From: Squalus acanthias
Taxonomy: Eukaryota
Length of the DNA stretch: 64,000 nt
Assembly: GCA_030390025.1 (NCBI GenBank)
Contig: CM059432.1
Location: forward strand, 48,300,001 to 48,364,000
Direction of reading: 5' to 3'
The notes under the pieces were generated by a model. The model saw only the letters and a program-made list of their open reading frames with translations, did no database searches and had not been told where the DNA came from. Below, in pieces: positions 3,166 to 57,580 of the stretch. Each line of letters starts with the position of its first letter. The stretch's first letter is position 1. The position numbers were made by a program, and so were the translations under genes.

Positions 3166-4166
3166 TAACTTTCCTGCAACAATTCCTGAATAGTGACTAT
3201 GCTGAATTTTCTTTCCCTTAGTCCAGGGCCACTCTGATGTCTTCACAGATATGGGGTCAGCTCCCACATGTATGCTGATGACACCCAGCTCTCTTTCACC
3301 ACCTCAGTGCTGTCAGACTGTTTGTTCGACACCCAGTCTTGACTGAGCTTCAATTATTTCCAGTTAAACAACTGGAAGACCAAAGCCATTGTCTTCGGTC
3401 CCAGCCACAAACGCTATGCCCTGGCCATTGACACCATCCCCCTCCCCCACAACCATTTTCTCAAACTGAACCAAGCTGTTTGCAACCTCAATGTCCTAAT
3501 GGATCTCGAGCAGGACTTCAGGCCCCATATCCTCTCCATCTAAAATACCGCCTCTGTAATATCATCCATCTCCGTCCCTGCCTCCGTCCATCTGCTACTT
3601 AAATGCTTGTGTACCTTTGCCACCTCCAGACTCAACTATTCCAATGCTCTCCTGGCTGGCCTCTCATCCTCCATGAACTTCAGCTCATCCAAAACTCTGC
3701 TGCCTGTATCTGATCTCACACCAAGCCCTATCGCCCATGTACTCGCTGACCTATATTGGCTCTTGGTCACCAACTGCTAAAATTTTAAATCCTGAGGGGT
3801 AGAAATTAGGTCGCGCCCCATTTGGGGCGCAAATATCGTCCGGACGCAAATATTAGCGCCTGGCGCTAATTATCGGCACTGACAGGAAACTTCACTTTTA
3901 CCGCCCCGGGAGGTGAGTGGAGCGCTAAATTAGGCGCTGCACACCTCTCTTAAGGCGCAAAGGCCAAGGAGTGAGGCGCTAACTCAGCGCACGAGCGCAG
4001 CGCAGCTGCTGCCAGTTAGCGAGGGAACACAGACACAATGGCGCCGGACACTTCTTAAAGCGGGGGGGGGGGGGGGGGGGGGGCCACTTGCTCCCCAGCC
4101 ACACCCTGCTCATTGCAGCCTTGAATCTCAGCCTGGAGAGACCTGTAATCCATTTTGCTGCCAAGC

Positions 4167-4403
4167 ATGGAGAGGGTGAGAGAACGCGCTCATCGCTTCA
4201 CCGAGCGGGCCTTGGATGCTCTGGTTGACGCAGTGGAGCGCAGACGATGCATGCTGTTCCCGGAGAGTGGCAGGAGGCCTTTGCCACGCGAGTTCAGAAG
4301 AGTGTGGAGGGAGGTGGCTCAGAGCGTCTACTCCAGGAGCATAGTGCCCAGGACCCATGTTCAATGCCGCAAAAAGTTCAACGACCTCACTCGGGTCGTC
4401 AGG
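4167..4403 (+). CDS. Harbinger Myb/SANT-like (trihelix) DNA-binding protein, exon 1
   Basis: MERVRERAHRFTERALDALVDAVERRRCMLF...VWREVAQSV...RTHVQCRKKFNDLTRVVR followed by a GTGAGT donor at 4404. Confidence 0.85.
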
Positions 4404-4544
4404 GTGAGTGGCTTTTTCTCAATACCTCTCCATCCCTCCATCTCAACCTCACTCTATGGCCAGAGGGTCTTAAAACCCCAATGCACAACACTCATCCAAC
4501 ACCTATGGCCCTTTCATCAAACACACACACACATTCCACACTTT

Positions 4545-4754
4545 GCATACAGTAAGGGCTATTCACCTATGGGAGGCACATCAGGCAAGACCATGGCTGC
4601 ATACAGTAAGGGCTATTCACCTATGGGAGGCACATCAGGCAAGACCATGGCTGTATATTGTAAGGGCTATTCACCTATGGGAGGCACATCAGGCAAGACC
4701 ATGGCTGTATATTGTAAGGGCTATTCACCTATGGGAGGCACATCAGGCAAGACC
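4545..4754. repeat. 54-bp tandem repeat, about 3.9 copies
   Basis: Unit gcatacagtaagggctattcacctatgggaggcacatcaggcaagaccatggct at 4545, 4599, 4653 and 4707 (last copy truncated). Units 3-4 share the variant gtatattg. Confidence 0.95.
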
Positions 4755-5249
4755 GCTACCCTCGCAAAGCCCAGAGCACGGTCACGCTGCTTGTCTGGGG
4801 TCATAGGGAAAGAGATGAAGTCTCGTCTCCTTCTGAAGAGGGCATTGGTGACCTGCCGGATGCAGCGATGCACCGCAAACTGGGAGATATTGGCGAGGTC
4901 CCCAACAGCAGCTTGGAATGAGCCAGTGGCGTAGAAGTTCAAAGCCACTGTGACCTTCACTGCCACCGACAGAGACGTCCTGGACCTCAGCTGAGGCTGC
5001 AGATCTGGCTGCAGCAGGTGGCAGAGCTCAGTGACCACCTCCTTGCTGAATCGCAGCCTTCGCAAACACAGCTCCTCGGACATATGGATGTAGGAGCTGT
5101 TCACGATATACCCTGGGAGGGTAAGCTCTCCTGTACATGCGCCTGATGGCCCTCCTCCGTCTGGCCATCATTGCCACTCTCTGTCTGCGTCTCACTATCC
5201 TCCGATTCAGCTGGAGCAGGACAACGCCCCCAATCATTGCAGCCCCCAT
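4755..5249 (-). pseudogene. Harbinger transposase N-terminal half (displaced; one frameshift near 5100)
   Basis: MGAA...YPPRVYREQ/SYIHMSEELCLRRLRFSKEVVTELCHLLQPDL...VAVKVTVALNFYATGSFQ...ALGFARVA. TATA-like CTATTTAAAG upstream near 5433-5442. Confidence 0.9.
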
Positions 5250-5468
5250 ATTCTCTTTGCCAGAAAAGTAATGAGGTACAGCAACTAAAGTAGCAACAAA
5301 GTTAGGATGAACTAGGCAAAACTACCTCACAAAGCGTTGAGTCAATGTAGAAGTCTCTCTCTCCGAATCTCTCTCTCTCAGAACGAGTGGTGCATAAATG
5401 TCGACCACAGAAAAAGACAGGAAGAGGCCCCCTTTAAATAGCGCCCCCCCCAGCCCCACACCGATTGA

Positions 5469-5911
5469 TAACATAGAAACATAGAAACATAAAAAAAACA
5501 TAGAATCTAGGAGCAGGAGTAGGCCATTCGGCCCGTCGAGCCTGCTCCGCCATTCAATACGATCATGGCTGATCATCCAAATCCAGTACCCTGTCCCTGC
5601 TTTAATCCCCACAGTACACATATCCCACCCTACCCCTGTAACCCCACGTATTTAATTCCCCCTAACATATCCCATCCTATCCCCATATATTTAATCCCCC
5701 CCTAACACTAAGGGTCAATTTATCATAGCCAAATCAACCTAACCCACACATTTTTGGACTGTGGGAGGAAACCGGAGCACCCGGAGGAAACCCACGCAGA
5801 CACGGGGAGAATGTGCAAACTCCACACAGACAGTCACCCGAGGTCAGATTCGAACCCGGGTCTCTGGCGCTGTGAGGCACCAGTGCTAACCTCTATGCCA
5901 CCGTGTTGCCC
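5469..5911 (-). mobile_element. HE1-like V-SINE (tRNA head, V-domain, CR1/HER1-type tail), full length
   Basis: Head GGGCAACACGGTGGCATAGAGGTTAGCA...GGTTCGAATC (A/B boxes), V-domain-like gggaggaaaccggagcacccggaggaaacccacgcagacac, and CR1 tail with (CTATGTTT)n. Confidence 0.85.
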
Positions 5912-6831
5912 AGTTCCAGTCTTCCAGTCGTTGGAAGCGCCAGGCGGTAAGGCAGGGGGCGCCACTCAATTTCCGCTCCGGGGCGCCCCAAGGGCGTTGC
6001 ACCAGGGGGGAAGGGGCTGATGATGGTGAAGCTCCAGAACCCAGCGGGCTGCAGCAACGCCATGGGGGGGGTAGGGAAGAACGGGGGCCTTCTCCCCAGA
6101 GGGAGAGTATGCCAGACACTCCTACTGCAATGGACGCAGAGGAGGAGCGGCTGATTGCAGAAATGAACAGCCAGGCAGTGGGCATGCACACTGAGCTCAT
6201 GGGTGCAGTGGGAAGGGTGCCCGAATGCATTGAATCACTGGCAAGGAGTGTGGAGCACTTCGCTGTAGCACAGGCGGATGCCACACTAAAGCTTAGTGCT
6301 GCAATTCAGTCACTGGCTGCCAGGAACCCATCTGAGACTGCTCTCATGCAGACTCAGATTGAGGCCACGCGAGCACTGACTGCTGCCATCCTCGATGGTT
6401 CGTGCACATGTCCCCGGGGCTGTCACCGCGCCACAGCAGGCCAGCAATCTGTTCTCCGGCAAATTGCTCCGGATGCTGAAGTGCTGCCCCGTGGGAGTGC
6501 CAGTGTGTCGGGCGAGCAGGGAGTTGCTGTCCTCTCTCACGATGACAGCATTCCTGCTGCCAACACTGTCACTTCTCCACTGCACTTGCCACCGCCTGTA
6601 GGACAGACTGCTGCCGCCCATGCAGAGTTGGTGCAGTCTGCAGCCGGGCCCTCCAGGCCCAGAACTGGTCGAGGCCGTCCTTCAGGGGCATCTGCAGTGT
6701 CAGGGTCTGACGAGCAGCAGCCTTCCACCAGCCTTGCTGCAGCCACTGAGGTCCCATTACGGAGGAGCAGTAGGGTTAGAAGGGGGGAAGTGCGCAAGGG
6801 AAGGAGATCACCCTCGAAGGGCAAAAAGTAG
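5912..6831 (+). CDS. Harbinger Myb/SANT-like gene, last exon (5'-truncated at the SINE junction)
   Basis: Frame is open from the SINE junction through ORF 6109-6831. Coiled-coil-like middle and basic tail (VPLRRSSRVRRG...KGKK) parallel the last exon of the second Harbinger (55269-56230). Confidence 0.7.
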
Positions 6832-7125
6832 GAGGTGTGCCAAAATGCTGGTCATTTTTTTATTAAAGGCCGAGGTTCATGGTCCAACTTTTGTTTAGTG
6901 TTTTGGACATTATCTCCAGGTTGTGAGAACCAGTTATGTTATTGACTGTTTTTTTGTGTTTATTTCTATGAGTTTGTCATGAGGAATTGACACACACACA
7001 GTTTGTAAAATAAATAAGTTTCTGTATTCAAAATATACATGGCTGGTGGTTGGAATTATTGGTGCCTTGGCCGGCTTAGGGGTTGCGTGCTGGGTTGATT
7101 AGTGTTTGTAGCAATGGCAGGGGCC

Positions 7126-7761
7126 CTAGAAGCGGCTTGCTATTAGTCGTTGACGGACGGCCCTTGCAGTTTGACCATTGTGGGCCGCCCTCCTGCCTTG
7201 GTGCTGCTGATGATCATCGTCCTCGTCCTCTTCCTCCTCCTCCTCTGGTGGTGCTACAAGGCCTGGTGGCATTGGCTGGGTCCTGAGGATTGCCATGTTG
7301 TGCAACATGCAGCACACGACTACGAAGTTCGAAACTTGCTCAGGCGAGTACTGCAGGGCTCCTCCGGAATGGTCCAGACAGCGGAACCGTTGTTTCAGCA
7401 CACCGATTGTGCGCTCAATAATGTTCCTGGTTGCTTGATGGCTTTCATTGTACCGCAGCTCAGCAGGGGTGTTTGGCGTACGGAGCGGTGTCATCAGCCA
7501 GGTGCTCAATGCGTACCCCTTGTCCCCCAGAAGCCAACCAACTGGCTGATGCGGTGCCTCGAAAACTTCTGCCACAGTAGTCTGGCGCAGGATGAAAGCA
7601 TCGTGGCAGCTGCCCGGATAGTGGGCATTGACAGCGAGTATCACCTGTCTGTGGTCACAGACCAACTGCACATTCAAGGAATGGAACCCCTTTCTGTTCC
7701 TGAATTCCTCTGCATTCTCTCGCGGAGCACGCAAAGCCACATGCGTGCAGTCAATGGCACC
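7126..7761 (-). pseudogene. Harbinger transposase C-terminal catalytic half
   Basis: GAIDCTHV...[15 protein letters not shown]...[11 protein letters not shown]...LLGDKGY...[18 protein letters not shown]...CCMLHN plus acidic tail. DDE residues intact and no stops. Confidence 0.92.
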
Positions 7762-9662
7762 ATGGAATGACGTCACAATCTGCGCGTGCAGGTGGTCGCA
7801 GCGGTAAGTGTTAGCGCCGCCGCACAATCTCAAGTTAAGTTCTCGAGCGGCGCAAACAGCGCTGCGCCCGGGCGTTAGCGCCTTAACGCCCCATTAGCGC
7901 CCTTTTAAGGCGCTAACGGGAGGCGCAACCAAGTGAATTTTTACCCCTTATTGTTTAAATGCCTTCATAGCCTTGCACCTGCCTATCTCTGCAACCTTCT
8001 CCAACACTGCAACCACCTCCAAACTCTTTGTTCCTCTTGACTCTGCCCTCATGTGCCCCTTCTTCACCTCACCATTGGTGGCCATGCCTTCAGCTACCAA
8101 GGCCCACACTCTGGACTTCCATCTCTAAACCCCTCTGCCTTGCTACCTCCTGCTCCTTGAAAGCCACCTCTTTATCCACATATTTGGCCACCCCTCCTAA
8201 TCTCACCTTTGGTTAAGCACCCTTTTTTTTTTTGACTTACACCTCTGAAGCTCCAGGACATTTTCCATGTTAAAGGTGCTACACAGATGCAAGTTGTTGT
8301 TTCCTGTTATTGAGGTACTCCAACTATTAAATTTACAATTTAGATTCCAGAATTGATATGGTGCTAATTTTGAAGTTGCTTCTCCAACATACTACAGCTA
8401 AGATTAATACATTAGAAATTTCTCAGATATACAGTTGCATAGATTGCATCAAAATCTATTTCAGAGATAGTCTTTGAAAGATTCCAAGGGTGAACTGCTT
8501 TCTTTTTAAATCCAAATCAAAAAGGCAGGTAATTTTACTTTTATGCACTTGTTACTTTCCAAGTACCTTTGGGTTGTCCCATGATGGTGAATTCTCAGTC
8601 CCAGACCCCCCAATTTGTAATGTTTCTTTATACTCGCATAGTTACGAGCAATAGGTCAGAGATGACAAACTTAAGAAAATGGCCCCAAATTACCTTGGGC
8701 CTAGGGTGTAATGCTGGGATAAAGCAAACACCAACAGCAAAGGAATTTTGGGGGTTCTCCTTTGGCGGAAGATTGAAGGAAACCCCAAATACACGGGGAT
8801 TCCACCGAAATTACGGCAACCAATCGGGAAAATCCCCGACCAAATTCCAACCCCCAAAGAACAGAGGGAAATTCCTACTGGAGAAGATGGAAGTTCTGTC
8901 TGTCCCATAGATGGTCTGATGCAAAAAAGGAGGTAGGACTGGTGGGATGGTATCGCATACTGGATTTCCTGCAGCTTCCACCTCTTGAGCAGCCAGCGAC
9001 CTGGACATCAGCAAGATATTGGCTAATTGAGAAATGTAAGTGGGGACCCACAGGTGCATCCAGAACAAATAAGAAAATGGAATGCTGGCACAATGCGAGA
9101 TCAGTTCTCTTATAAAAGGAGGCTAATTTTTCCTTTTGCCTGACATTACAGCCAATCTTTATAGTAATCTTGATTTAGAAACTGGAAATGGTAACATCCA
9201 CATTGCATCAATGGTGGAGCCCTGGGAATTTGCAATGTAGTAGGTAGCCTGCATAGTGTAGGCATTTGGTATTTGAAGCTGGCTAGGAGCAGCAAAAAGT
9301 AGGCCCATAGGCAAGGAACATTTTAGAGGGGAAGTCACTGTGGACTGTTCTTGCAGCTCCCTTTGGTTAGATTAACGAGGGTAGGTTCCATCATCTTAAA
9401 GGAATCAGTTAATGACCTGTGAAGATATTAAAAGCAAAAGGACAGGTTGAGGAGATTATATGAAGGTATCAGCTGTGACAAATGATCTGGATTTTACCAG
9501 GACCTGGTAAAATATTATGACAACTATAGGGCTGAAATTCCAGGATCCTGCTCCACTGCTGTTAAGTACAGCACTGCAAGAAACCAGATATGCTGGTAAC
9601 CCTTAGTTTACTATAGAGACTTGTTTTAAGAAAAAAGGACTGCAACAGCAGAGACACAACAG

Positions 9663-26336: not shown

Positions 26337-26640
26337 ATAGAAACATAGAATCTAGGAGCAGGAGTAGGCCATTCGGCCCGTCGAGCCTGCTCCACCATTC
26401 AATACGATCATGGCTGATCATCCAAATCCAGTACCCTGTCCCTGCTTTATTCCCCACAGTACACATATCCCACCCTACCCCCGTAACCCCACATATTTAA
26501 TTCCCCCTAACATATCCCATCCTATCCCCATAACCCCACATATTTAATCCCCCCCTAACACTAAGGGTCAATTTATCATAGCCAAATCAACCTAACCCGC
26601 ACATTTTTGGACTGTGGGAGGAAACCGGAGCACCCGGAAA
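26337..26640 (-). mobile_element. HE1-like SINE, 5'-truncated
   Basis: Nearly identical to 5495-5790. Confidence 0.85.
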
Positions 26641-27938: not shown

Positions 27939-30900
27939 GGCCTGGAATTTGTGGTCAGCGGCGAAGCGACAGTGATCATAGAATCATAGAAGATAGGAGC
28001 AGGAGTAGGCCATTCGGCCCCTCTAGCCTGCTCTGCCATTCAATGCGATCATGGCTGATTATCCAAATTCAGTACCCTGTCTCTGCTTTCTCCCCATATC
28101 ACTTTAGCCTTAAGAAATATATCCAACTCCTTCTTGAATCTATTTAATGAATTGGCCTCTACTGCCTTCTGTGGCAGAGAATTCCACAGGTTCACCACTC
28201 TCTGGGTGAAGAAATTCCTCCTCATTTCTGTCCTAAATGACTTACCCCTTATCCTTAGACTATGACCCCTGGTTCTGGACTCCCCGACCATCGGGAACAT
28301 CCTTCCTGCATCTAGTTTGTCCTGTCCTGTCAGAATTTTATAAGTTTCAATGAGATCCCCTCTCATTCTTCTAAACTCCAGCGAGTATAAGCCCAATCGA
28401 CCCAATCTCTCTTCATACGTCATTCCTGCCATCCCAGGTATCAGCCTTGTGAATCTTCGCTGAACTCCCTCCATGGCAAGAACATCCTTCCTCAGATAAG
28501 GCAACCAAAACTGCACACAGTACTCAAGGCGTGGTCTCACCAAGGCCCTGTACAACTGCAGCAAGACATCCTTGTTCCTGTACTCAAACCCTCTCGCTAT
28601 GAAGGCCAACATACCATTTGCCTTCTTAACCGCCTGCTGCACCTGCATGCTTACCTTCAGCAACTGGTGCACAAGGACACCCAGGTCTCGTTGCACTTCC
28701 CCTTCTCCCAATCTATTGCCATTCAGATAATAATCTGCCTTTCTGTTTTTGACACCAAAGTGGATAACCTCGCATTTATCCACGTTATATTGCATCTGCC
28801 ACGCTTCTGCCCAATCACCCAACCTGTCCAAATCATACTGGAGTTTCTCGGCATCCTCCTCGCAGCACACATGCCCACCCAGTTTTGTGTCGTCTGCAAA
28901 CTTGGAGATATTACATCTAGTTCCCTTGTCTAGATCATTAATATATATTGTGAATAGCTGGGGTCCAAGGATAGTCACTGCCTGCCACTCGGAAAAAGAC
29001 CCGTTTATTCCAACTCTTTGCTTTCTGTCTGCCAACCAGTTCTCTATCCAAGTCAATACCTTGCCCCCAATCCCATGTGCCTTAACTTTACACGCTAATC
29101 TCTTATGCGGGACCTTATCAAAAGCCTTTTGGAAGTCCAAATACACCACATGCCACTGGTTCTCCCTTATCTATTTTACCAGTTACATCCTCAAAAAATT
29201 CCAGTAGATTAGTCAAGCATGATTTACCTTTTGTAAATCCATGTTGACTTTGTCCGATCTTGTCACTGTTTTCCAAGTGCTCAGCTATTACATCTTTTAT
29301 AATGGACTCTAGCATTTTCCCCACTACCGATGTCAGGCTTACCGATCTGTAATTCCCCGTTTTCTCTCTACCACCCTTTTTGAATAGAGGGGTAACATTA
29401 GCTACCCTCCAATCCATGGGTACTGTTCCAGATTCCATCGAATGTTGGAAGATGATCAGCAATGCATCTACTATTTCTAGGGCCACTTCCTTAAGTACCC
29501 TAGGATGTAGATTAACAGGCCCATGGGATTTATCGGCCTTCAATTTCCCTAACACCATTTCCCTACAAATACTGATTTCTTTCAGTTCCTCCCTTTCATC
29601 AGACCCTATGTCCCCAACATCTCTGGGAGGTTATTTGTGTCCTCCTTTGTGAAGACAGAACCAAAATATGTATTTAATTGGTCTGACATTTCTTTGTTCC
29701 CCATTATAAGTTCCCCTGATTCTGACTGCAAGGGACCTATGCTTGATTTCACTAATCTTTTTCCCTTCACATATCTATAAAAGCTTTTACAGTCAGTTTT
29801 TATGTTCCCTGCAAGCTTACTCTCGTATTCTATTTTCCCCTTCTTAATTAATCCCTTTGTCCTCCTTTGTTGAATCTTAAACTGCTCCCAATCCTCAGGG
29901 TGACTGCTTTTTCTGGCCAATTTATATGCCCTCTCCTTGGATCTTATGCTATCCCTAATTTCCCTTGTTAGCCACGGTTGAGTCACCCTTTTTGTTTTAT
30001 TCTTATGCCAAACTGGGATGAACAAATTCTGTAGTTCGTCCATGCGGTCTTTGAATGTTTGCCATTGCCTATCCACCGTCAACCCTTTGAGTGACATTCC
30101 CCAATCTATCCTACCCAGCTCGCACCTCATACGATCGTAGTTTCCTTTATTTAAATTCAGGACCCTAGTCTGAGTCAACTACTTCACTCTCCATCCTAAT
30201 GAAGAATTCTATCATATTATGATCGCTCCGACCCAAGGGGCCTCGCACAACAAGATTGCTAATTAATCCTTTCTCATTGCATAATACCCAGTCGAAGATG
30301 GCCTGATCTCTGGTTGGTTCCTCGACATATTGGTCCAGGAAACCATCCCGTAAACACTCCAGGAATTCCTCCTCCATAGTATTGTTACTAAGCTGCCCAC
30401 AAAGATGTTGTGATCTCTATGGAAAAAACTTTAGTTTTCTTGACGTTAATCTGAGTGTAGCGCTGTCTATAGGGGATCTCGAGCGTCCAGCAGCAGTGAT
30501 GTCATCAAGCTGGCTAAGCAGCCAATGACACTGAAGAATTCTCAGAGACAGCAAAGCAGGAAATAAAAAGCAACTTTTATCATTCACTTTAAAAATTTTA
30601 GGGAGCGAAATAAATATTGGGACACGCGCACTGGGTTAACATAGAAACTGAAATATGATAAACAAACTTAAAAAAAAGTAATTTAAAAAAAAAAATCTAG
30701 TAATTTTTATTATAATGAGAAATTTGACATTACACAAAGATAAAATTAGTTTTTCAGGGCCAGAACGATTGTTCAGCAGTAGTTATTACTCAGAACACCA
30801 TTAAAAACCTAGTTACACCTCATTGAACAAGGCTTCAGTTTTATAGGGTTTTAACAGCGATATTAGAGTGGAAAAGGGGAAGTTTTCGTCAGTTCGGGTG

Positions 30901-32356: not shown

Positions 32357-33213
32357 CTTGTCCGACATCCCGTACTGGATGAGCAGAAATTTCCTCCAAC
32401 TATATATTGGGAAGACTGAAGCCCATTGTCTTCAGTCCCCACCACAAACTCCATTCCCTAGCCACCGACTCATCCCTCTCCCTAGTATCTGTCCGAGGCT
32501 GAACCAGACTGTTCGCAACCTTGGTGTCATATTTGACCCTGAAATGAGCTTCCGACCACATATCCGCGCCATAACTAATACCGCCTATTTCTACCTCCGT
32601 AACATCGCCCAACTCCGCCCCATCTCAGCTCATCCGCTTCTGAAACGCTCATCCATGCCTTTGTTATCTCTAGACTTGACTATTCCAACGCACTACTGGC
32701 TGGCCTCCGACGTTCTACCCTACGGAAACTTGGTCATCCAAAACTCTGCTACCCATGTCTAACTCGTTCCAGGTCCCGTTCACCCATCACCCCTGTACTT
32801 GCTGACCTACAATGGCTCCCGGTTAAGCAACGCCTCAATTTAAAAATTCTCATCCTTGTTTTCAAATCCCTCCATGGCTTCGCCCCTCCCTATCTCTAAT
32901 CTCCTCCAGCCCCACAATGCCCCAAGATATCTGCGCTCCACTAATTCTGGCCTCTTGAGCATCCCTGATTTTAATTGCTCAACCATTGGTGGCTGTGACT
33001 TCAGCTGTCAAGGCCCTAAGCTCTGGAATTCCCTCCCTAATCCTCTCCGCCTCTCTTTGCTCCTTAAAACCTACTTCTTTGACCAAGCTTTTGGTCATCT
33101 GCCATAATTTCTCCTTTCGTGGCTCGGTGTCACATTTTGTTTTATAAAGCTCCTGTGAAGCACCTTGGGACATTTTACTACATTAAAGGCACTATATAAA
33201 TACAAGTTGTTGT
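32357..33213 (+). mobile_element. L2 LINE 3' fragment nested in Penelope
   Basis: WMSRNFLQL.IGKTEA...VRNLGVIFDPEMSF and tail aaatacaagttgttgttg. Confidence 0.88.
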
Positions 33214-39075: not shown

Positions 39076-41346
39076 TTGTTTATGGACTTCTTTGTCTCTA
39101 AGATTGCAACCATCCGTTCAGTTGCCTCTGCCACTTCCCTTCCTTCCCCTAGCCCACTGGGCCAAACTTCCTCTAAGGTTCCCCCCTGCCCTAGCCCTGA
39201 ACTCACATCTTTCTCTAGTTTCTCTCCGATCTCCCCTCATGACCTCTCCGCGCTCATCTTGTCCATGAGACCCACTTTCTGCTCCCACCAAACTGCTGAC
39301 CGCCCAACTTCCTTTTCTGGCTCCCATGTTAGCTGACATTGTTAGCGGTTCGCTCTCTTCAGGTACTGTTCCTCTTTCCCTCAAATCTGCCATCATCACC
39401 CCTCTCCTCAAAAAACCAATCCTTGACCCCTCCGCCCTTGCAAACTACCGCCCCATCTCCAAAGTCCTTGAACGTGTTGTCGCCTCTCAAATCCGTGCCC
39501 ATCTTTCCCGCAATTCCATGTTTGAATCCCTCCAATCACGTTTCCGTCCTTGCCACAGTACCGAAATGGCTCTCATCAAAGTCACAAAGCTGAACTATCC
39601 CTCTTCGTCCTTCTTGACTTGGCGCAGCCTTTGACGCGGTTGACCACTCCATCCTTCTCCAACGCCTCTCCACCGTCGTACAGCTGGGTGGGACTGCACT
39701 CGCCTGGTTCCATTCATCTATCTAATCATAGCCAGAGAATCACCTGCAACAGCTTCTCTTCCCGCTCCTGCTTCGTTACCTCTGGTGTCCCCCAAGGATC
39801 TATCCTTGGCCTCCTCCTATTTCTCATCTACATGTTTCCCCTTGGCGACATCATCCGAAAACACTGTCAGTTTCCACATGTACGCTGATGACACCCAGCT
39901 CTACCTCACCCCTCCACGGTCTCTAAATTGTCAGACTGCTTGTCAGACATCCAGTTCTGGATGAGCAGAAATTTTCTCCAATTAAACATTGGGAAGACCG
40001 AAGCCATTGTTTTCAGTCCCCGCCACAAACTCTGTTCCCTAGCCACTGACTCCATCCCTCTCCCTAACATCTGTCTGAGGCTGAACCACACTGTTCGCAA
40101 CCTTGGGGTCATATTTGACCCTGAAATGAGCTTCCGACCACATATCTGCAGCATAACTAAGACCGCCTATTTCCACCTCCGTAACACTGCCCGTCTCTGC
40201 CCTTGCCTCAGCTCATCCACTGCTGAAATCCTCATCCATGCCTTTGTTACCTCTAGACTCAACTATTCCAATGCACTCCTGGCTGGCCTCCCACATTATA
40301 CCCTACGTAAACTTGAGGTCATTCGAAACTTGGCTGCCCTTGTCCTAACTTGCATCAAGTCCCATTCACTCATCACCCCTGTGCTTGCTGACCTACATTA
40401 GCTCCCGGTTAGGCAACACCTCGATTTCAAAATTCTCATCCTTGTTTTCAAATCCCTCCATGGCCTCGGCCCTCCCTATCCCTGTAATCTCCTTCAGCCC
40501 CACAACCCCCCCCCACCCTGCCCACCCGAGATATCTGCGCTCTTCTAATTCTGCCCTCTTGAGCATCCCCGATTATAATCAGTCAACCATTGGTGGCCGT
40601 GCCTTCTGTTGCCTAGGCCCTAAGCTCTGGATTTCCCTGCCTAAACCTCTCTTTCCTACTTTAAGATACTCCTTAAAACCTACCTCTTTGACCAAGCTTT
40701 TGGTCACCTGCCCTAATTTCTCCTCATGTGGCTCGGTGTCAAATTTTCTGTCTTATCATACTCCTGTGAAGCGGCTTGGGACGTTTTACTACGTTAAAGG
40801 CGCTATATAAATACAAGTTGTTGTTGTTGCCTTTTCATTTTTCCTACCAAAGTAGACAACTTCACATTTCTCCACATTATATTCCATCTGCCATGTTCTT
40901 GCCCACTCACTTAACCTGTCTTATATCCCTTTGTAGTCTCTTTGCATCCTCCGCACAACTTACTTTCCCACCTAGCTTTGTATCATCAAAGTTAGCAAAC
41001 TTGGATACATTATACTCGGTCCCCACATCTAAGTCATTGATATGGATTGTAAATGGCTGAGGCCCAGGCACTGATGCTTGCGGTACCCCACTAGTTACGA
41101 CTGCTAACCCAAAAATGACCCATTTATTCCTACTCTCTGTTTTCTGTCCATTAACCAATCCTCAATCCATGCTAATATATTACACAAAATTAGAGCTCAT
41201 GGGATTGGGGGTAATAACCTCTTGTGTGGTACTTTATCGAATGCTTTCTGAAAATCTAAATACACTACATCCACTGGTTCCCCCTGATCTACCCTGCTAG
41301 TTACAAGCTCAAAAACTAACAGATTTGCCAAACACAATTTCCCTTT

Positions 41347-46430: not shown

Positions 46431-48372
46431 AATGTAAACCTGCAGAGATATTTGCCCACTGAGGAATATCAGATCAAAATCTACATAAACTGACTCCACA
46501 CAAATACTTGGAAGGATCTAGTGTGCGAAAAAACATTAAGCAGTAGCAACTGTTACTTCACTACAACTGTTTATTAATGCATAAGCAGAAGACTCCACTA
46601 ATGGTGGAGGATGTGCCGATACTGCTGTCTGTAATGAAAGCCTTGCATGTCTCTGCAGAGAAGGTGGCTTTTAACAGAAGACAGGACATCACTACCAAAG
46701 GACTTGCTACTATCCAGGAAGCCCCCAAGTTTGAGAAAAGAGCTATAGAATTGCACCGATGGACCCTGAAAGGTAGCAGATGATGAAACAGGTGGGCAAG
46801 TACCCAGACGGTTCGTAGTTCTCTTCCGTTTACCTCCTGCCAATCCAAGTAATTCTCAGTGTAAACTCTGGTGACATTTCTTGGAAGATGAAAGTGCTGA
46901 TATATGTGGATAAGTACACCTTGAGTTCATTCTTGATTTGCTTTTATGATTGTCCTCCTGTGTCTTCCCAGGAACAACGCAGCAAGCAGACACCAGAACC
47001 TCCACATAATCTCCAGGAAGCAGCTCATCTGGTGCCCTGTCACAGTTCCAAAAATCCACTACCTCTATGCTGTCAAGCTGCTTGTTCAACATCCAATCTC
47101 AGATAAGCTGCAGTTTCATCCAACTAAACTTTGGGAAGACTGAAGCCATCATCTTCAACCCTCCCCACAAACTCCATACCCTTGCCATTGAATCCATCCC
47201 TCTTCCCTGCCAGTGTCTCAGGCTGAACCCGACTGTTCACAACCTCTGTTACCCTATTTGAACTCAAGCTGAGCTTCTGACCCCATATCCTCTGCATCAC
47301 AAAGAGTACTTACTTCCACCATCACAATGTTGCCTGCCTCCGCCTAACCTCACCCCATTTGCTGTTGAAATTCTCTTGCCAAGGCAATATTGCTATCTTA
47401 GACTTTGAATGTTTATTTTGTTAGTTATTCTGTTCAATGGTTAATAAGTTAAAAGCAGCAATCACTGTGCTATTGTATTACTTAAAATCAAGTTATTACT
47501 GTCCTTAGGATTTAGATTCTATAAATTTGTTCTACGTAAGGAACTACCATTGTATCTCATGTGGTATTGCTCACAGTAGGTCAGTAGATTCGCTATTTTA
47601 TAGGTTTATGCCATGTAGGGGATAACATCGGGCTACAGCATTAAAGTGATTAAGTCAAACTCCATTTTATATTAAAAAGTATTCTCTGATTTCTCCTGGT
47701 GCTTTGGGAATTGAATCCCAGAATTCTGTCCATTATTTTGTGAAAACTGTAATACATCAGTTAATCTCCCATGGTGTTGCACAGACTAGTGAAGACAAAG
47801 TGTAGCCTTGAGGAAATGGAATTGGAGGAAATATTTTGATCAGGGTATGTAGACTTAAGGGGCTAGAAATTCGCCTCCTTTGCGCCTCCCGTTAGCACCT
47901 CCGGGGGGCGATAACGGGGTGCTAACGACTTACCGCCCGGGCGCGGCGATAATACCGACGCCCACGAAATTCACCTGGCGGTTTGCGGCGGCGGAAACCC
48001 CTAGCACCACGCTCTCCCGCGCCCGGAGATCGTGACATCATCCGGCTGCACAGTGCCCCGGTAGCGCCCCGGACCCAAAATTTGGTTCCGCCCCCCTGCA
48101 GCATCGCCGGGCGATAACACCGACAGCTGCAGGAGGCGTCGTTCGGGAGGCCGGGCGCTTCGGGAGCGCTAATTAAAGGTAAGGCTGCTGGTCTGCAGAA
48201 AAAAATTGTTTCCATCCCTTAGGTTGCTGTTGAAAATTTTTTAACTGCCATGATTGATCAGCTCTGCACTCTGTTAGAGTGCTTGGGGCTGATCGTCACG
48301 GAGTCCGGCTGCCGTCAGCAATGAGGGACATCATTGAAATGCAAAGCCTGCAGCAATGGCCCTTCCCTTTAA

Positions 48373-48920
48373 AAATCAGAAGTCGCACAACACCAGGTTA
48401 TAGTCCAACAGATTTATTTAATTTTACAAGCTTTCGGAGCTGTTCGCTCCTTCTTCAGGTAAGGTAGCTGTGAGAGAATCTCCCAGAATTCACAATATAA
48501 ACACAGAAAAAATCTATTCAAATCTTTCCCTACATCAAAGACACACTAAGAGCACAGCCAAGACAATGAGATGTGTCCCAGGGGGTCCAACGTGTCAAAA
48601 CACCTGCTGGCTGCATATCCTCTCCATTAGTCTTTTTAAAACAAAACCTGGAAAGACCGGCCATGATGTCAAGTCACGTTCTGTATCGTGACATGAACCC
48701 GATATCGCGATTGAGGCCATCCTCATGAGTGCGGAACTTGGCTATCAGTTTCTGCTCTATGATTTTGCGCTGTCGTGTATCCCGAAGGCCGCCTTGGAGA
48801 ACGCTTACCCGCAGATCCGAGGCTGAATGCCCCTGACTGCTGAAGTGTTCCCCGACTGGGAGGCAACCCTCCTGCCTGGCGATTGTTGCGTGGTGTCCGT
48901 TCATACGTTGTCTCAGTGTC
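48373..48920 (-). mobile_element. Penelope-like 3' fragment (GIY-YIG C-terminus and terminal repeat)
   Basis: LPVGEHFSSQGHSASDLRVSVLQGGL...RKIIEQKLIAKFRTHEDGLNRDIG; 9-bp TSD tccctttaa at 48364-48372 and 48921-48929. Confidence 0.85.
48424..48462 (-). ncRNA. Minimal type I hammerhead ribozyme motif
   Basis: TTAC-CTGAAGA-A-GGAGC(GAACA)GCTCC-GAAA-GC-TT-GTAA. Confidence 0.65.
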
Positions 48921-50402
48921 TCCCTTTAAGGGAGGGAAGGAGTCTCAGATCCCGGCAGCGCTGCATGGGACATTGTGCAGCACTGCACCTCTACCGCCCC
49001 TCCTGCGTGGTTTAGCGCTCCAGAATTAAAATGGTAGCGCTTGATTTAGCGCTCCACTTCCTTCCTGGAGCGCTAACACCCAATTTAGACAACGCTGAGA
49101 ATCATTAGCCCCTGGCACTAATTTTTCCACCTTTCAAAATTTAGCGCCCCAAACGGGGCGATACCAAATTTCTCCCCCAAGATTTTTAATAAGACCCAGC
49201 AATGACAAGAAGTCTGTACTTCTTGGGTTGTCCAAAAGTTATTTCACTAATATAAAAACACTTTATAAATATATAAAGCAGTTGATAAATAGCTTATAAA
49301 ATATTGTCTGGTAGTGAACTGGGTTGTTTAGATTACTTTTAAAGCTCAGGGTTTCTCCTCTGTGTGTCATGAATGCAATTGTTTTTTTTAGAGAAATCAC
49401 ACTGACTTGGGTTAGGGAGCCTGGCTAATGGAGGCACAGTAGCAGAGACAGTGCAGAGCCAATGGTCCTCTACCCTTGATAGATGCTGTTTTGTGAGGCT
49501 CATCAAACAGCTTTGGGGCAGATGCTGACACAAAAGAGCCAGTGGTAGTTTGGGTGCGCAGAGACTGGTTGGTTAAGCGGGGAAAAAGTGTGGGTTGATG
49601 GAAATCTCCCTTAACAGTGGAATATCAGCTTGTGCACAGAAATAGTATGGGAAAGAATCTGGTGGGTTCTCAAAGCAATGCAGAGAAAGTATGGGAGATA
49701 AAGGGAGTACTTGAGGACACTTTATCAGCCACTATACTTGACCTTCTACCATGGGAAAAGGCTCATGGGAAAGCACCCGTACAGAACTGCAAGATGTTTA
49801 TTTCCTCTTTTTAAAAATTATGAATTTTACAGTTGCACGATTTTAGTTTAAAAAAGAATAAATGCTCATCATTATGCTGATTATTACTAAGTGGAGAAAA
49901 ATATGGTAGCGTGTAGCTTGAAAAATAGAAAACATTTGTTTAGCAGCACCACCCAGTGGCCAGAGCCTGCAACTGCAGAAGTCAGAGAGCAACTGCAGCA
50001 GTGAGTGTGCCAGACTGTCACAATATTGGAAAGTCCTATCAGGTTGAATTTAATAATAAAGCTGACGATCTCCTGTGGCGCAGTTCATGGGAGGTTGGAA
50101 GATGTGTCTTTTCCCCAAGTTCAGGAGGATTATATGTTACAATGTAGACTGTCTTAATTTTAGAGTGAAATACAAATTATAATAAATAAATGTGAGCAAT
50201 TGAAAACTGGCATATTATATATGGAAGATTTTATATAATGCTTTGGGGGGGAATGACAATCAAAATTAATAAATGTGAAATATATAAAACTGTAGTACTG
50301 TAAAATGTAAATGTAGAAATACATAAAATAAGACTATTTTTGTTATGTGTAAGGCATTGAGCATAAGGTTAATGTGGTAGTTTGTACATAAATCATACAA
50401 TA

Positions 50403-51847: not shown

Positions 51848-53267
51848 TAATTTCTTTGCCCATTGAAATGCAAGTCTGAAGTTTGGGGATGGTTTGGGGA
51901 TGAATATTTGTGGTGGGGTGTATGAATCATTGGGGAAAGAAAGAGGATTTGGTGATGTCTGGGTGTTGAGCACAGAGAGGTTATTAGGATGAGGTCAAGT
52001 GCAAAAGAGAGAGTCTGGATAGTTATGAAGAGCATGGTGAGGGAAAATATTGGAAGGAAAGATAGAAATAATACATTATGGGGAGGAGAGTGATGAGGAT
52101 TTGTAGGAATGGGTTAAATCAGACTGTCCTGAAGTCTACTAATATTATACTACTGCTGAATTAGCAATTTAAGGTAGTGACCATTGAGCTGTTGAACCAA
52201 TGCTGACCGTACAGCAATGGTTAGTTTCAGGATTAAGTAATGAGGGACCTAAAGATGTGCCATTGCATTCTGGTTCCTAAAGTTTCAGATAACTAATCAT
52301 TTGATAACGAGTGCAGAAAAACAGTTGGTTCTGCAAAGGAAAACATCTGGGAACACATCATCCTTTTAAATTGGTGTACCAACGATACAGAAACAAAGAC
52401 TTATAATTAAAGGTTTCACTTGTTAGATTAACAATTATATATAACAAGAGCAAAGCTATTAATAAGAAAACAAAGTAAGGGAGTTATACCTATCTCGTTA
52501 GCCCAACGGAAAAGGAGCTTGTTAAGTAAGAAAATTAATTTATTAACTAAAGATATTGATAAGGGACAAGTTCAATTAAATTATCCTTTTATATGGAGTT
52601 GTATTTTAACTTTTGTAATGTCATGTAGTACAGAAATACGTGGAACGTCATCGAGAGGGGGTGAGAAAAATGTATTAAAAATGGCAGTCCGTAATGAGTA
52701 TTTTGATTCATAAAGGTCAAAGTTACTGAAATCAGAACTATAACTCATTTGAATCCCCAACCAAACCATGATCAGATGCAGTTGTAAGTACAATCTTTTA
52801 AGTGTATAAGTATTATTACATCTACTGTATGTTTAATAAATCTATGACACTTGACCTCAATGTTCAAGAACCTTATTGATTTGAGTTGATAGAGGATAGT
52901 TTTATTTATGACTAGTTGTTCCATGTGTGAATTTAAAAAAAATGGACAAAACCAGATCACAAGTAGTGGAACTGAGAAATAGAAACACGAAGTAAAAAAA
53001 AAACCCAGAGTGAGAATCTTAAAAATATACAAACACTGGGAATTAAATTTTTTTTAATTATGCTAAAGTGCCGCTACCACAACTGTGGGTCTGAAACAAA
53101 CAAGAGCCATATTTTTTTTTTAAAAGGCAACAGCAGAGTCACAGTTAAAAACACATAATGGGAGTAACAGTAAAAACAAGTACCTAACTACTGACAGTAC
53201 GACTAAAAGAAACACGTCATGAGGAGGACTTAAAGAACACAAACACCAGGAGTAAGTGTGGAAAAAA

Positions 53268-53728
53268 AAGACTTGCATTTATATAGCGCCTTTCACAACC
53301 ACTGGATGTCCCAAAGCACTTTACAGCCAAAGAAATACTTTTTGAAGTGTAGTCACTGTTGTAATGTAGTAAACGCGGCAGCCAATTTGTGCACAGCAAG
53401 GTCCCACAAACAGCAATGTAATAATGACCAGATAATCTGTTTTAGTAATGTTGATTGAGGGATAAATATTGGCCAGGACACCGGGGATCACTCCCCTGCT
53501 CTTCTTTGAAATAGTGCCATAGGATCTTTTACGTCCACCTGAGCGAGCAGACAGGGCCTTGGTATAATGTCTCATCTGAAAGACGGCACTTCTGACAGTG
53601 CAGCACTCCCTCAGCACTGCACTGGAGTATCAGCCTAGTTTTTTTGTGCTCAAGTCTCTGGAGTGGGACTTGAACCCACAACCTTCTGACTCAGAGGCAA
53701 GGGTGCTACCAACTGAGCCAAGGCTGAC
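53268..53728 (-). mobile_element. Deu-domain tRNA-SINE
   Basis: Reverse-complement match to 41347-41807. Confidence 0.85.
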
Positions 53729-53992
53729 ACACGCATGGGGAAAAAAATACAATAGTATGGGATTAAAAGTAAAACTTTGACAGCTGGAAAAATTACTGCA
53801 ACATTACAGCTCATTACTTGCCTCATGGAAAGGCTGTTGCTCACTCCATTTTGTCCACAGATTTATGTGTCAGCAGTTTGCAGGTCATTTTTGAAACCTT
53901 GGAAACCACTCTCACCACATTGTCACTCACTATCACAACATTGAGGGATTGGCACTCCGATCTCCACTTTACCTGCCATCTACTACATCAAC

Positions 53993-54975
53993 ATGGGTGC
54001 CGCTTATACTGTCTCACCTTGGTCCTCAGAATTGGACCAAGATGAGCCCCACCACCAACACCAGCAGCAGCAGTAACCACAACAGCAGTCTTCTCCTCAA
54101 CAACCTGATACTCCATAAGAGAGGGTCAACACAGGGCAGCAATGCGCTGAAGGTGATACCCCCAACACAGGGTATACAGGCAGAGGATCAGCTTCCTCAA
54201 CATAACTGAGCAGCAGTGCGTTAGGAGGCTCAGGCTATTGTGCCAGGTCGTTGCAGACATTTGTAGCTTGGTGGAACAAGACCTGCTGCCCAGAGGTTCT
54301 GGTGGACACTCCTTACCAGTGGCTGTCAAAACCACCACCGCCCTCAACTTCTTCGCCTCAGGCTCCTTCCAGGGATCTGCAGCAGACATTTGCGGGATCT
54401 TGCAGTCGGCCGCCCACAGATGCATCACCCAGGTGACCGATGCCATGTTTCACAAGTCAGTCAATTATATCAACTTTGCCACTGATGAAGCCAGTGCTAC
54501 TGAGTGGGCGCTTGGCTTTGCGGTTCTGGCTGACTTCCCATAAGTGCAGGCATCATCGACCGCACACGTGGCCATGAAGGCACCCCATCCTCACCCAGAA
54601 GTGTTTGTGAACCGCAAGGGCTTCCACTCCCTCAATGTGCAGCTCGTCTGCAACCATAAAAAGATGATAATGCATGTGTGCGCCAGATTCCCTGGCAGCT
54701 GTCATGACTCTTTTGTGCTGCGCCAGTCCACTCTCCCTCAGCTCTTCACACCTCCAACAGACTTACCGGCTGGCTGCTTGCCCGCTGCACAACATAGCGC
54801 AGCAGCGAGGATTGGAGCTGCAGGAGGAGTATGACACACAGCCTCTTCAGAGGAAGAGGACGAGCAGGTGGAAAACGAGCAGGAGGAGGTGGAGGAGGAA
54901 CCTGAGATGCAGGTGGCACCAGCAGCAGCGCACAATGCTGCCCGGGATGGCTTAATCACGGCCAGATTTACTTAG
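53993..54975 (+). pseudogene. Harbinger transposase of second element (stops, frameshifts, internal deletion)
   Basis: MGAA start; [46 protein letters not shown]. The GDKGY and IER regions are deleted. Acidic tail present. Confidence 0.9.
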
Positions 54976-55268
54976 CTTGCTCCAATGCAGCCACATGGTT
55001 GCCACTTGCTTCCTAAGATTCCCCCCCGCACTCCAACAACACCATAAATGACCAATCCATTCCTCTCAACTAAAGCCCCAATGCTCGAGGTTAAATCATG
55101 TCTCACCATTCATTCCAAGTGACAAAGCCACTTCCAAGGTTTGAGTCAAAAATGGACAAGACCCGGAAGTGGTGCAAAGAAACACATTTGTGTGTGTTAT
55201 CAAAGTAACTGATACTTAGCACTAACATTTTTTGATACACCCATGTGCATCTACTTTTGTCCCATTTT

Positions 55269-57210
55269 TCATTTGCGAGTGCTTCTACAATGTGCAACCC
55301 CTGTGGCTTCAGCAGAGGTAGTTGCAGGCTGCTCACTTACTTGCTGTGACTCGTCAGACACTTTTGGCGGACGTTCTCTGGGATTTGGAGCCTGTGATGG
55401 CCCTGTCAAACTCTGCTCCTCCTGCAACTGTGCAGGGGCAGACTCGGCCATTGGGATCCGAGGAAGCATGTGGGGCTCTGACTGAGGGGGAGGCAACGGG
55501 GGAGAAGTGGGAGTGCTTAGAGAAGAGCCCCCACTTCCATGTCCCTTCTCAGCATCATCCCTCTCATGGGCCACCCGCACTTCCCTGCTAGCAAGGAGCT
55601 GGAGAGCACCTTGCTGCACAGCAGTGGGGCGATGAATGCCCAAGTCAATGTTTACATCCCTCCTAGAGATGAGGTCTATGAGCGACTGCCATCTGCTGTC
55701 CACAGCTAACATGTGCTCATGTGAGTGGCGCATTGGCTGCTCCATGCAGGTGGCCATCCTTTCCATGGAAGAGCACATTATCGCCATTGCCTGCAACATG
55801 GTGGTGCTCATGCTGGAGATGGACTCCTCCATTCTCTGAACATTTGCAGACATCGCGGCTTCAAAAGATGCCAGAGCCTCATGCAATTGTTGCTGCCCCT
55901 CCAAGATCACCCTCTATCTCGATTGCCCCCCGAAGCTCAGCGTCTGCATGCAGCTCAGCAGAGCTTGGAGTGCCCTGCGCCCTACGGTGAGAAGTCTCCA
56001 CTGCTGTCCCTGTCAACACCACCTGCTCTTGCTCACTTGTGAATTGTGAGACACCAGGTGACAACTCTACTCTATGGCGCAAAGGACCCACTGAGGTGTG
56101 CGTATTTGTGCTGGTGCTAGCTGCGCTTGGGTCTGCTGATGGTGCAACCTCAGAGGCTGGAGTTCCTGTGAGGAGTCGTCTTTCTCCTCCGGCTGGACAG
56201 TGAGGGGGGTGGGGGGTACAGTTGATGGACCTTTGGGAGAGTAGAGATAAATTAGAAGTGTTATAATAAGAATGGATAATATTACCATTATGCACAAGAT
56301 GACATAAGAACATAAGAAATAGGAGCAGGAGCAGGCCATTCGGCCCCTCGAGCCTGTGCTGCCATTTAATGAGATCATGGCTGATCTGATGACATTTCAC
56401 TGGCTGCTGACATCAGTCACCACATGAGTGACTGTTGTATGCCATGTGACTTTATGAGACGTGATTCTGTCACCAGGTTGATGGGATGTCACCCTCTCTC
56501 CGTCTCCCACCGCCAGCAGCTCTGCAACTCCCGATATCTCAGGGGCCCCCTCCTCTGCTGCTGTAAGGTGTGTGAATACTGGAGGGCCACCTCTGGTTCT
56601 CTCCCCCTCTCTGTTGTTGTGAGCTCTTTTGTTCTGCAAGGAGGGAAAGAAGAGAACTTTGAGTGAGAGGGATGGAATGAGTGTAAGGAATGGATGGTTA
56701 CATCTGTAGAAGGTGATTATGAGGGAGTGGGGCACCAATGCCAAATGGCCTGCTTCTGTGGTGTTACTTGCTATGATTGCATTAGGATGAGGGTGAATGT
56801 GAGGGGTGGTTAGTCAGATGGGGATGCGAGTATGTACATAGAGGGATGGGTGGACCTGGAAAGTAGGTTGGTGTGAGGAATGATGCGCAGGAGTAGGCTT
56901 GGGAAGGCAGAGTGATGGGGATGTGTTGACAGGCACATCAGGATGAAGGTGAGTGTGGCATTGCACTCACCTTTCCTGACCTCATGAGATCATTGAAGCT
57001 TTTCCTGCACTGTATCCAGGTCCTCCTCACCACATCCCTGCTGCTGACCTCCTCAGTTATATCCAGCCAGGCTCTTTTTGTTTCTTGTGGAGGTCTCCTT
57101 TGCCTGTTAGCAGGGAAGAGGACCTCCCTGCCTGCTCTGACAGCCTCCACCAGAGTATGCAGCGATGAATCTGAGAAGCCTGGTGCTGCCCTCTGCCTTT
57201 GGCTATCCAT
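55269..57210 (-). pseudogene. Harbinger Myb/SANT-like gene of second element, 3 exons (57210-56971, 56633-56474, 56230-55269; frameshifted)
   Basis: MDSQRQRAAPGFSDSSLHTLVEAV...AWLDITEEVS...RTWIQCRKSFNDLMRSGK/GTGAG; exon 2 NKRAHNNREGERTRGGPP; canonical splice sites. Element right end aaaattccggc near 57505. Confidence 0.85.
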
Positions 57211-57580
57211 CCTTCCAAAGTTGTAACAGTACTGTGGCCTTTCTTTGTCACGTTCCACCCTCCTCTGGCAACCTTCAAATGAGTTGAGTGCAAGGCTGCT
57301 TTTAAATATGGGCGCTGGAAACGAGTCATCGATGATGTCATCAGACCCACACCATTTAATAGGGCCGGGAAACAAGCATGAGTCTTTCAATTGGGGCCAT
57401 TAAGTAAAAGTCATTCTTAACAACGCGCTGCTCAGAACATCGCGTTCCTGACCCGCTACGCGGCCCGCACGCTCCCAACCCGACACAAAGGTAAAAATTC
57501 CGGCTACTCTCTGAGTTTAATACACTTTCAGAAGGTTACAGAACACAGAACAAAAGCTACAACAGGTATGTAATCAGTAG

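What the first reader, a model, noticed from the sequence alone, without database searches (positions are those of the whole stretch)
3796..7947. Harbinger transposon with a circularly permuted interior: transposase split and halves out of order
Seen: inside one TIR pair the order is A (left TIR and Myb exon 1), D (transposase N-half and TATA, 4755-5468, minus), SINE, B (Myb last exon), C (transposase catalytic half, 7126-7761, minus), E (right subterminus). The second Harbinger in this window gives the normal convergent layout, equivalent to A-B-C-D-E. D stops at ...GFARVA and C starts at GAIDCTH, so only about 6 codons are lost at the break, and no block is inverted. Myb exon 2 and part of the subterminal region are missing. 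Inference: B-C-D to D-B-C is a circular permutation, as expected if an internal segment circularised (D-B join, now holding the SINE), reopened inside the transposase and reinserted in place. Serial microhomology template switching is an alternative (ggcaagacc at the A/D join resembles the expected transposase sequence).
Basis: partly seen in the sequence, partly recalled or inferred. Interest (0 to 1): 0.7.

Follow-up and report, generated by a model that had tools for sequence, protein, structure and literature searches.

The report
Harbinger transposon with swapped internal blocks
One dead copy of a jumping gene has two of its inner blocks in swapped order with almost nothing lost at two of the three joins, most likely the scar of a single DNA-repair accident guided by short sequence matches, which is a tidy example of a known kind of rearrangement and not a new system.

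Summary
The swapped order is in the sequence. Inside one Harbinger TIR pair (3796-7947), the transposase N-half (D) lies 2.4 kb from its catalytic half (C), with nothing inverted. Exactly six codons are absent at the break (43 of 59 relatives).

The SINE is not at the new join: 5912-6004 is subterminal DNA that natively abuts E with zero offset. The true D|B join is therefore 6004/6005, and no subterminal DNA is missing.

Two joins show homology. A 5-bp pentamer is shared at C|E, and the end of A resembles the six missing codons (14 of 6,896 18-mers score as high).

Best reading (0.55): one local, copy-neutral, microhomology-guided repair event moved D about 1.8 kb upstream, replacing Myb exon 2 and the start of exon 3. 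A free B-C-D circle gives the same order and is not excluded (0.2). No read-level test of the joins was obtained, so misassembly and spread of the permuted form stay open. Six look-ups showed no earlier scan note of this on other DNA.

The parts
3793..3795 (+). left copy of the probable 3-bp target duplication (TGA); imperfect match to the right copy
   Evidence: L2 paralogs show no net gain
3796..3807 (+). left terminal inverted repeat core (12 bp)
   Evidence: 11 of 12 match to the right end
3796..4754 (+). block A: left end, Myb exon 1, stub of intron 1, tandem array
4167..4403 (+). Myb-like gene exon 1 (79 codons, intact donor at 4404)
   Evidence: PF13873 E 7.8e-10; donor
4544..4754 (+). 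54-bp tandem array, 3.9 copies in two unit types, cut off by join J1; not known whether native to the family intron
4736..4756 (.). join J1 (A|D, at 4754/4755); the last 18 nt of A resemble the six missing transposase codons
   Evidence: 14 of 6,896 element 18-mers reach the score; 11 of 18 identical to the matching stretch of the second Harbinger
4755..5468 (-). block D: transposase N-half (ATG 5249, frameshift near 5097-5100), 5' leader and TATA-like motif near 5433
5469..5911 (-). SINE inserted inside block D, not at a rearrangement join; its tRNA-head/LINE-tail anatomy is read by eye from recall
   Evidence: 95.6% identical over 298 columns to a copy at 26341-26638; MITE diagonals either side differ by 440 nt against a SINE of 443 nt (the left diagonal is weak)
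5912..6004 (.). D': subterminal continuation of block D, natively contiguous with E
   Evidence: 30 of 46 identical on one ungapped diagonal to the MITE, next best 22, 456 diagonals; no Myb similarity in 4 of 4 proteins
5999..6010 (.). join J2 (D'|B, at about 6004/6005); native sequence upstream of B unknown
6005..7125 (+). block B: 5'-truncated last Myb exon (open to stop at 6831) and the shared 3' region
   Evidence: P0137 residues 245-553, E 9e-41
7126..7761 (-). block C: transposase catalytic half, open frame
   Evidence: PF13359; 65% to P0001
7757..7762 (.). join J3 (C|E): GCACC(A), shared with the end of D' at 5999-6004
   Evidence: five or more shared bases in about 0.5% of random pairs
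7762..7947 (.). block E: right subterminal region and right TIR core (7936-7947)
   Evidence: 61 of 99 on one ungapped diagonal to the MITE, next best 41
7948..7950 (+). right copy of the probable target duplication (TTA)
3727..3793 (+). left host flank, old L2-like LINE (family name from recall), colinear with the right flank
   Evidence: aligns to 32783-32850 and 40362-40436
7951..8020 (+). right host flank, same LINE, continuing 5 nt further on in both paralogs
   Evidence: aligns to 32856-32917 and 40442-40513

Best explanation
A single, now dead, Harbinger copy underwent one local, copy-neutral repair event guided by short homologies. SHOWN: native order A-[lost part]-B-C-[18 nt]-D-E became A-D-B-C-E; nothing inverted, no block present twice; C and E meet at a pentamer shared with the end of D; the end of A resembles the 18 nt that natively preceded D. 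INFERRED: D (about 0.8 kb, or 1.25 kb if the SINE was already there) was skipped or released between the two GCACC pentamers, which joined C to E. The same D piece was then captured or copied 1.8 kb upstream: its left end paired with imperfect homology in Myb intron 1, and its right end joined inside Myb exon 3, deleting the rest of intron 1, exon 2, intron 2 and about 37-50 codons of exon 3. An equivalent single path is a nascent strand running A, then D, back to B and C, and forward to E around a looped template. Both genes are broken, so the copy is non-autonomous; both termini remain.
For: Zero offset at the D'|E break and a shared 5-6 bp motif, about 0.5% by chance for five or more bases. 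A-end 18-mer in the top 0.2% against a profile of the missing codons (14 of 6,896). Six missing residues (43 of 59). Independent switch points would give both near-coincidences in 3 of 3,329 same-order draws, so the breaks are coupled. D and C each retrieve P0001 as best hit in separate searches (67%, 65%). Among the hits of the search made with A, P0137 matches B best and ties with P0136 for A (92 and 91 bits). Flanks are one continuous LINE. Microhomology with multiple template switches is the MMBIR signature (PMC2621351, passages); 6-8 bp microhomology deletions are described in a DNA transposon (PMC3814204, passages).
Against: No family consensus: native context at J1 and J3 is inferred from proteins about 65% identical and a MITE about 65% identical, and homology at J2 could not be assessed. 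No read-level support for any join. A copy-neutral outcome is less typical of replication-based events, which PMC7025897 (passages) ties to copy gains. Trees of the two halves were unresolved.
Confidence: 0.55

Rival explanations
1. Free circle: B-C-D was excised, closed at the D'|B join (6004/6005, not at the SINE), was reopened or invaded at the C|D boundary and went back into the gap it came from. Copying one round until the polymerase meets its own primer would explain the tiny loss.
For: Two same-direction blocks in changed order is the published circle-insertion pattern (10.1101/2022.06.22.497135, passages; PMC7188851, first quarter of the text). Copy-neutral, with the 18-nt and 0-nt offsets.
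Against: The pentamer at the D end is used twice (kept on D', and matching at C|E), which needs a staggered cut or a second template. GCACC occurs at only 3 places on the + strand of D, B and C, so the reopening point is constrained. The gap must stay open while a circle forms. Most published cases insert at another locus.
Confidence: 0.2
2. Stepwise history: an internal duplication or a D piece copied from another family copy, followed by separate deletions.
For: The family looks abundant and young: 17 of 24 listed runs hold half or more of the sampled words (not junction-specific), so ectopic templates exist. Trees cannot show D and C are the same copy.
Against: Needs independent breaks to coincide within 18 nt and 0 nt: 3 of 3,329 in simulation.
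Confidence: 0.1
3. The permuted form arose elsewhere and was itself transposed as a non-autonomous element, so it may be a small subfamily.
For: Both TIR cores and 186 bp of the right end are kept; non-autonomous Harbinger derivatives exist in this window (MITE).
Against: No look-alike among the scan's noted windows, a weak blank because only 153 windows of this genome carry notes. The subterminal piece D' is displaced from E.
Confidence: 0.1
4. Assembly artefact.
For: High-copy repeat family; joins not checked against reads; the best DNA runs hold 0.78-0.84 of the words, not all.
Against: The joins share only 5-18 nt, far below assembly overlaps (inference); three joins with near-exact conservation of sequence and continuous flanks are not what repeat collapse gives.
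Confidence: 0.05

Closest known systems
PIF/Harbinger two-gene DNA transposons (as described in PMC9179366; passages read); shark HARBI1-like transposases such as P0001
   Same: TIR-bounded, DDE_Tnp_4 transposase plus Myb/SANT-like gene; convergent layout as in the second element of this window
   Different: transposase split and out of order, Myb exon 2 lost, frameshift in D; a defective copy
Circle-insertion pattern / eccDNA-mediated duplication (PMC7188851, first quarter of text; 10.1101/2022.06.22.497135, passages; cattle KIT and tilapia vasa as summarised in PMC3420103, passages)
   Same: two blocks, same direction, changed order
   Different: about 3 kb rather than tens of kb to Mb; in place, inside a transposon, no duplication of the blocks; about 100 codons plus introns lost at one edge; no evidence of a physical circle
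MMBIR/FoSTeS complex rearrangements (PMC2621351, passages) and local multi-jump clusters (PMC7025897, passages)
   Same: several clustered joins with short or imperfect homology; a small tandem array beside one join
   Different: no block duplicated or inverted; break points are mutually coupled
Microhomology-mediated internal deletion of DNA transposons (Ozma MITEs, PMC3814204) and gap-filling Pack-TIRs (PMC8277862); passages read
   Same: internal breaks joined at short homologies inside a TIR element; a filler replaces an internal deletion
   Different: the filler is the element's own block D, removed almost exactly from its native place

Membership tests
PIF/Harbinger DNA transposon | DDE transposase of the Harbinger type | tested here: met
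   PF13359 E 1.2e-39; both halves match HARBI1-like proteins; present in two pieces
PIF/Harbinger DNA transposon | second gene with Myb/SANT-like domain | tested here: met
   PF13873 E 7.8e-10; B matches the C-terminal part of Myb relatives
PIF/Harbinger DNA transposon | terminal inverted repeats (25-50 bp in PMC9179366) | tested here: inconclusive
   12-bp core, 11 of 12; little match further in; same core in the MITE
PIF/Harbinger DNA transposon | 3-bp target site duplication | tested here: inconclusive
   TGA/TTA; flanks colinear but no net 3-bp gain against two paralogs
Autonomous Harbinger element | both genes intact | tested here: not met
   transposase split, six codons absent, frameshift; about 90-110 Myb residues absent
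eccDNA circle insertion | blocks in permuted order, same direction | tested here: met
eccDNA circle insertion | inserted at a recipient site apart from an intact or deleted donor site | tested here: not met
   permuted blocks lie between their own native flanks A and E, one copy each
eccDNA circle insertion | physical circular intermediate | not testable with these tools
   sequence order alone cannot show it
MMBIR/FoSTeS-type complex rearrangement | microhomology at joins | tested here: inconclusive
   J3 5 bp and J1 imperfect 18 nt, both against inferred native context; J2 not assessable
MMBIR/FoSTeS-type complex rearrangement | copy gain or inversion among the switched segments | tested here: not met
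   self-comparison shows only the 54-bp array repeated
Pack-TIR (gap-filling) | captured filler from outside the element | tested here: not met
   the filler is the element's own transposase half and subterminal DNA

The most novel reading that the evidence does not exclude
The copy is the germline footprint of a kilobase-scale circle (or looped template) that re-entered its own locus after one exact round of copying, and the permuted element, keeping both termini, was then mobilised in trans as a new non-autonomous Harbinger subfamily.
Probability: 0.1. Interest if true: 0.55.

Novelty: new variant of a known kind. Interest (0 to 1): 0.3.

Why it matters
It is a small three-join, copy-neutral block swap whose break points can be read almost to the base, so with a family consensus it could separate circle reinsertion from homology-guided template switching, two models that block order alone cannot tell apart. 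It also cautions that a 'circle insertion pattern' does not prove a circle. As one dead transposon copy it has no known functional effect.

Tried and rejected
Sequencing-run search: 20 of 24 listed runs hold the stretch or part of it; no RNA holder listed; word shares do not resolve joins. No read or contig evidence on the joins was obtained. No near-identical intact transposase was found among the longer proteins searched (best 65-67%). The Myb exon 1 word search gave 1 protein among 164 candidates; the HMMER library search gave 66. Trees of each half (13 of 31 chosen relatives passed the motif and length filter, 18 dropped) were unresolved. The alignment of D's right end (5431-5464) to the MITE did not beat shuffles (29 against a maximum of 32), so the left anchor of the SINE-offset estimate is weak. 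No SINE target duplication was evident. Rejected: native family order (transposase is contiguous in relatives and in the second element); rescue of the transposase by back-splicing (no AG before C, only a weak GT after D, six codons still absent; read); SINE as cause or seat of the join (93 bp away). G-run motifs overlap J2 but had no control and are not used. Look-up of the 54-bp array among earlier findings was blank. Paper searches for a permuted or scrambled DNA transposon interior listed none by title or abstract start; the library lacks most subscription journals, including much older Ac/Ds and P-element work (recall), and no supplements were read, so absence from print is not shown.
Full report
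WHAT IS THERE. The stretch 3796-7947 is one Harbinger-type element. The termini share a 12-bp core at 11 of 12 positions. The flanks are one old LINE: 3727-3793 and 7951-8012 align to 32783-32850 and 32856-32917 of a paralog, and likewise to a second paralog. The flanking triplets are TGA and TTA. Against both paralogs there is no net 3-bp gain, so the target duplication is plausible but not shown. The best protein hits are from cartilaginous fishes, so the host is probably a shark or ray (inference). No whole genome was available.

BLOCK ORDER. Myb exon 1 is 4167-4403 (PF13873). The transposase N-half runs from ATG 5249 to 4755 on the minus strand, with a frameshift near 5097-5100. The catalytic half is 7761-7126 (PF13359). 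Of 105 proteins found with C, 87 also match D, in N-to-C order D then C. Of 133 proteins, 59 could be scored for the gap between D's last and C's first residue, and 43 of the 59 have exactly six residues there. The second Harbinger in the window has D- and C-like DNA contiguous and its Myb gene convergent. The native order is therefore A-B-C-D-E and this copy reads A-D-B-C-E with no inversion. D and C each retrieve P0001 first in separate searches (67% and 65%). Trees were unresolved (13 of 31 rows used), so same-subfamily origin is compatible with the data but not proven.

CORRECTION OF THE JOINS. A Harbinger MITE at 47860-49178 supplies a native subterminal layout. The 93 bp right of the SINE (5912-6004, D') align to it (score 53, best of 300 shuffles 38). 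On ungapped diagonals D' matches at 30 of 46 (next best 22 among 456 diagonals) and E at 61 of 99 (next best 41); control pieces from the start of B and the end of C reach only 20 of 46 and 19 of 41. Bases 6003 and 7761 pair with the same MITE base, so D' and E abut natively with zero offset. Independently, Myb similarity starts at 6010-6028 in 6 of the 7 relatives that reach that part, of 67 proteins given (the seventh is a 23% extension from 5965). The frame upstream scores -18 to -26 against +14 to +56 downstream in 4 of 4 proteins. The diagonals either side of the SINE differ by 440 nt against a SINE of 443 nt, though the left anchor is weak. So the SINE is an ordinary insertion inside D, the new join is at 6004/6005, and no subterminal DNA is lost. 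What is lost is the rest of Myb intron 1, exon 2, intron 2 and about 37-50 codons of exon 3 (about 90-110 residues in four relatives).

JOIN ANATOMY. J3 (C|E): GCACCA ends both D' (5999-6004) and C (7757-7762). The last A probably belongs to E, since relatives mostly have Gln at that codon. Five or more shared bases occur in about 0.5% of random pairs. J1 (A|D): the last 18 nt of A, read on the transposase strand, were scored against a profile of the six absent codons built from 28 of 54 cartilaginous-fish relatives; 14 of 6,896 element 18-mers score as high, and they are 11 of 18 identical to the matching stretch of the second element. J1 also cuts a 54-bp array of 3.9 copies; complete units share a 7-mer with the native D'|E break, 3 bases left and 4 right. 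Whether the array is native is unknown. J2: native context unknown.

MECHANISM. Shown: three joins, conserved orientation, single copy of each block, offsets of 0 and 18 nt. A simulation of independent switch points gave both near-coincidences in 3 of 3,329 same-order draws out of 2,000,000, so the breaks are coupled and most likely one event. Inferred (0.55): D was skipped or released between the two pentamers, joining C to E, and recaptured 1.8 kb upstream by imperfect homology with intron 1; or, equivalently, one nascent strand ran A, D, B, C, E around a looped template, stopping in C where its own earlier segment was paired. A free B-C-D circle (0.2) gives the same order but must use the D-end pentamer twice and return to its own open gap. 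Stepwise history (0.1), a mobile permuted subfamily (0.1) and misassembly (0.05) remain. None of the joins was checked against reads.

AGE AND STATE. The C frame, B frame and exon 1 are open; D has one frameshift. 17 of 24 listed runs, from several organisms, hold half or more of the sampled 31-letter words, which would correspond to about 98% identity. This suggests a young, abundant family but says nothing about the joins. The copy is non-autonomous.

COMPARISON. It works like a microhomology-guided complex rearrangement (PMC2621351, passages; PMC7025897, passages) and has the geometry called a circle-insertion pattern (10.1101/2022.06.22.497135, passages; PMC7188851, first quarter of the text; PMC3420103, passages). 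It fails membership of eccDNA-mediated duplication (no separate recipient site, no copy gain) and of Pack-TIRs (PMC8277862, passages; the filler is its own DNA). Microhomology deletions inside DNA transposons are described (PMC3814204, passages). Nine paper searches (listings only except where named) showed no in-place permuted transposon interior; the library is incomplete. Six look-ups of earlier scan notes showed none either.

VERDICT. A real-looking, well-resolved structural accident in one dead transposon copy; a new variant of a known kind of rearrangement. Interest 0.3, and 0.55 if the permuted form proved to have spread or a circle could be shown.

Noticed in passing
window 47860-49178: Non-autonomous Harbinger (MITE-like, 1.3 kb) with the same 12-bp TIR core and a perfect CTT target duplication in an A-N-N-Y / R-N-N-T context; used here as the layout reference.
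   Followed up: partly
window about 54000-57480: Second Harbinger in native order. Its transposase has a stop and a frameshift at the same six-codon spot where the first element is broken, plus an apparent internal deletion near 54780; no transposase-side TIR was found in 52000-54200.
   Followed up: partly
window 5905-6006: AG sites just right of the SINE (exon starts 5914, 5920) are in frame with B and with phase-0 Myb exon 1, so a spliced Myb-like product lacking exon 2 is formally possible; no expression evidence.
   Followed up: partly
window 4544-4754: The 54-bp array has two unit types, two copies each, suggesting at least two separate slippage steps.
   Followed up: partly
window 5980-6016 and 6064-6087: G-run motifs of quadruplex type overlap and follow join J2; no control run.
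   Followed up: no
protein P0008: A public shark gene model fuses a Myb domain (residues 1-82) to a Harbinger transposase on one strand; may be a mis-joined model or another rearranged copy.
   Followed up: no
window 28049-30178: Long open frames of a CR1-like LINE (family name from recall) on the minus strand.
   Followed up: no
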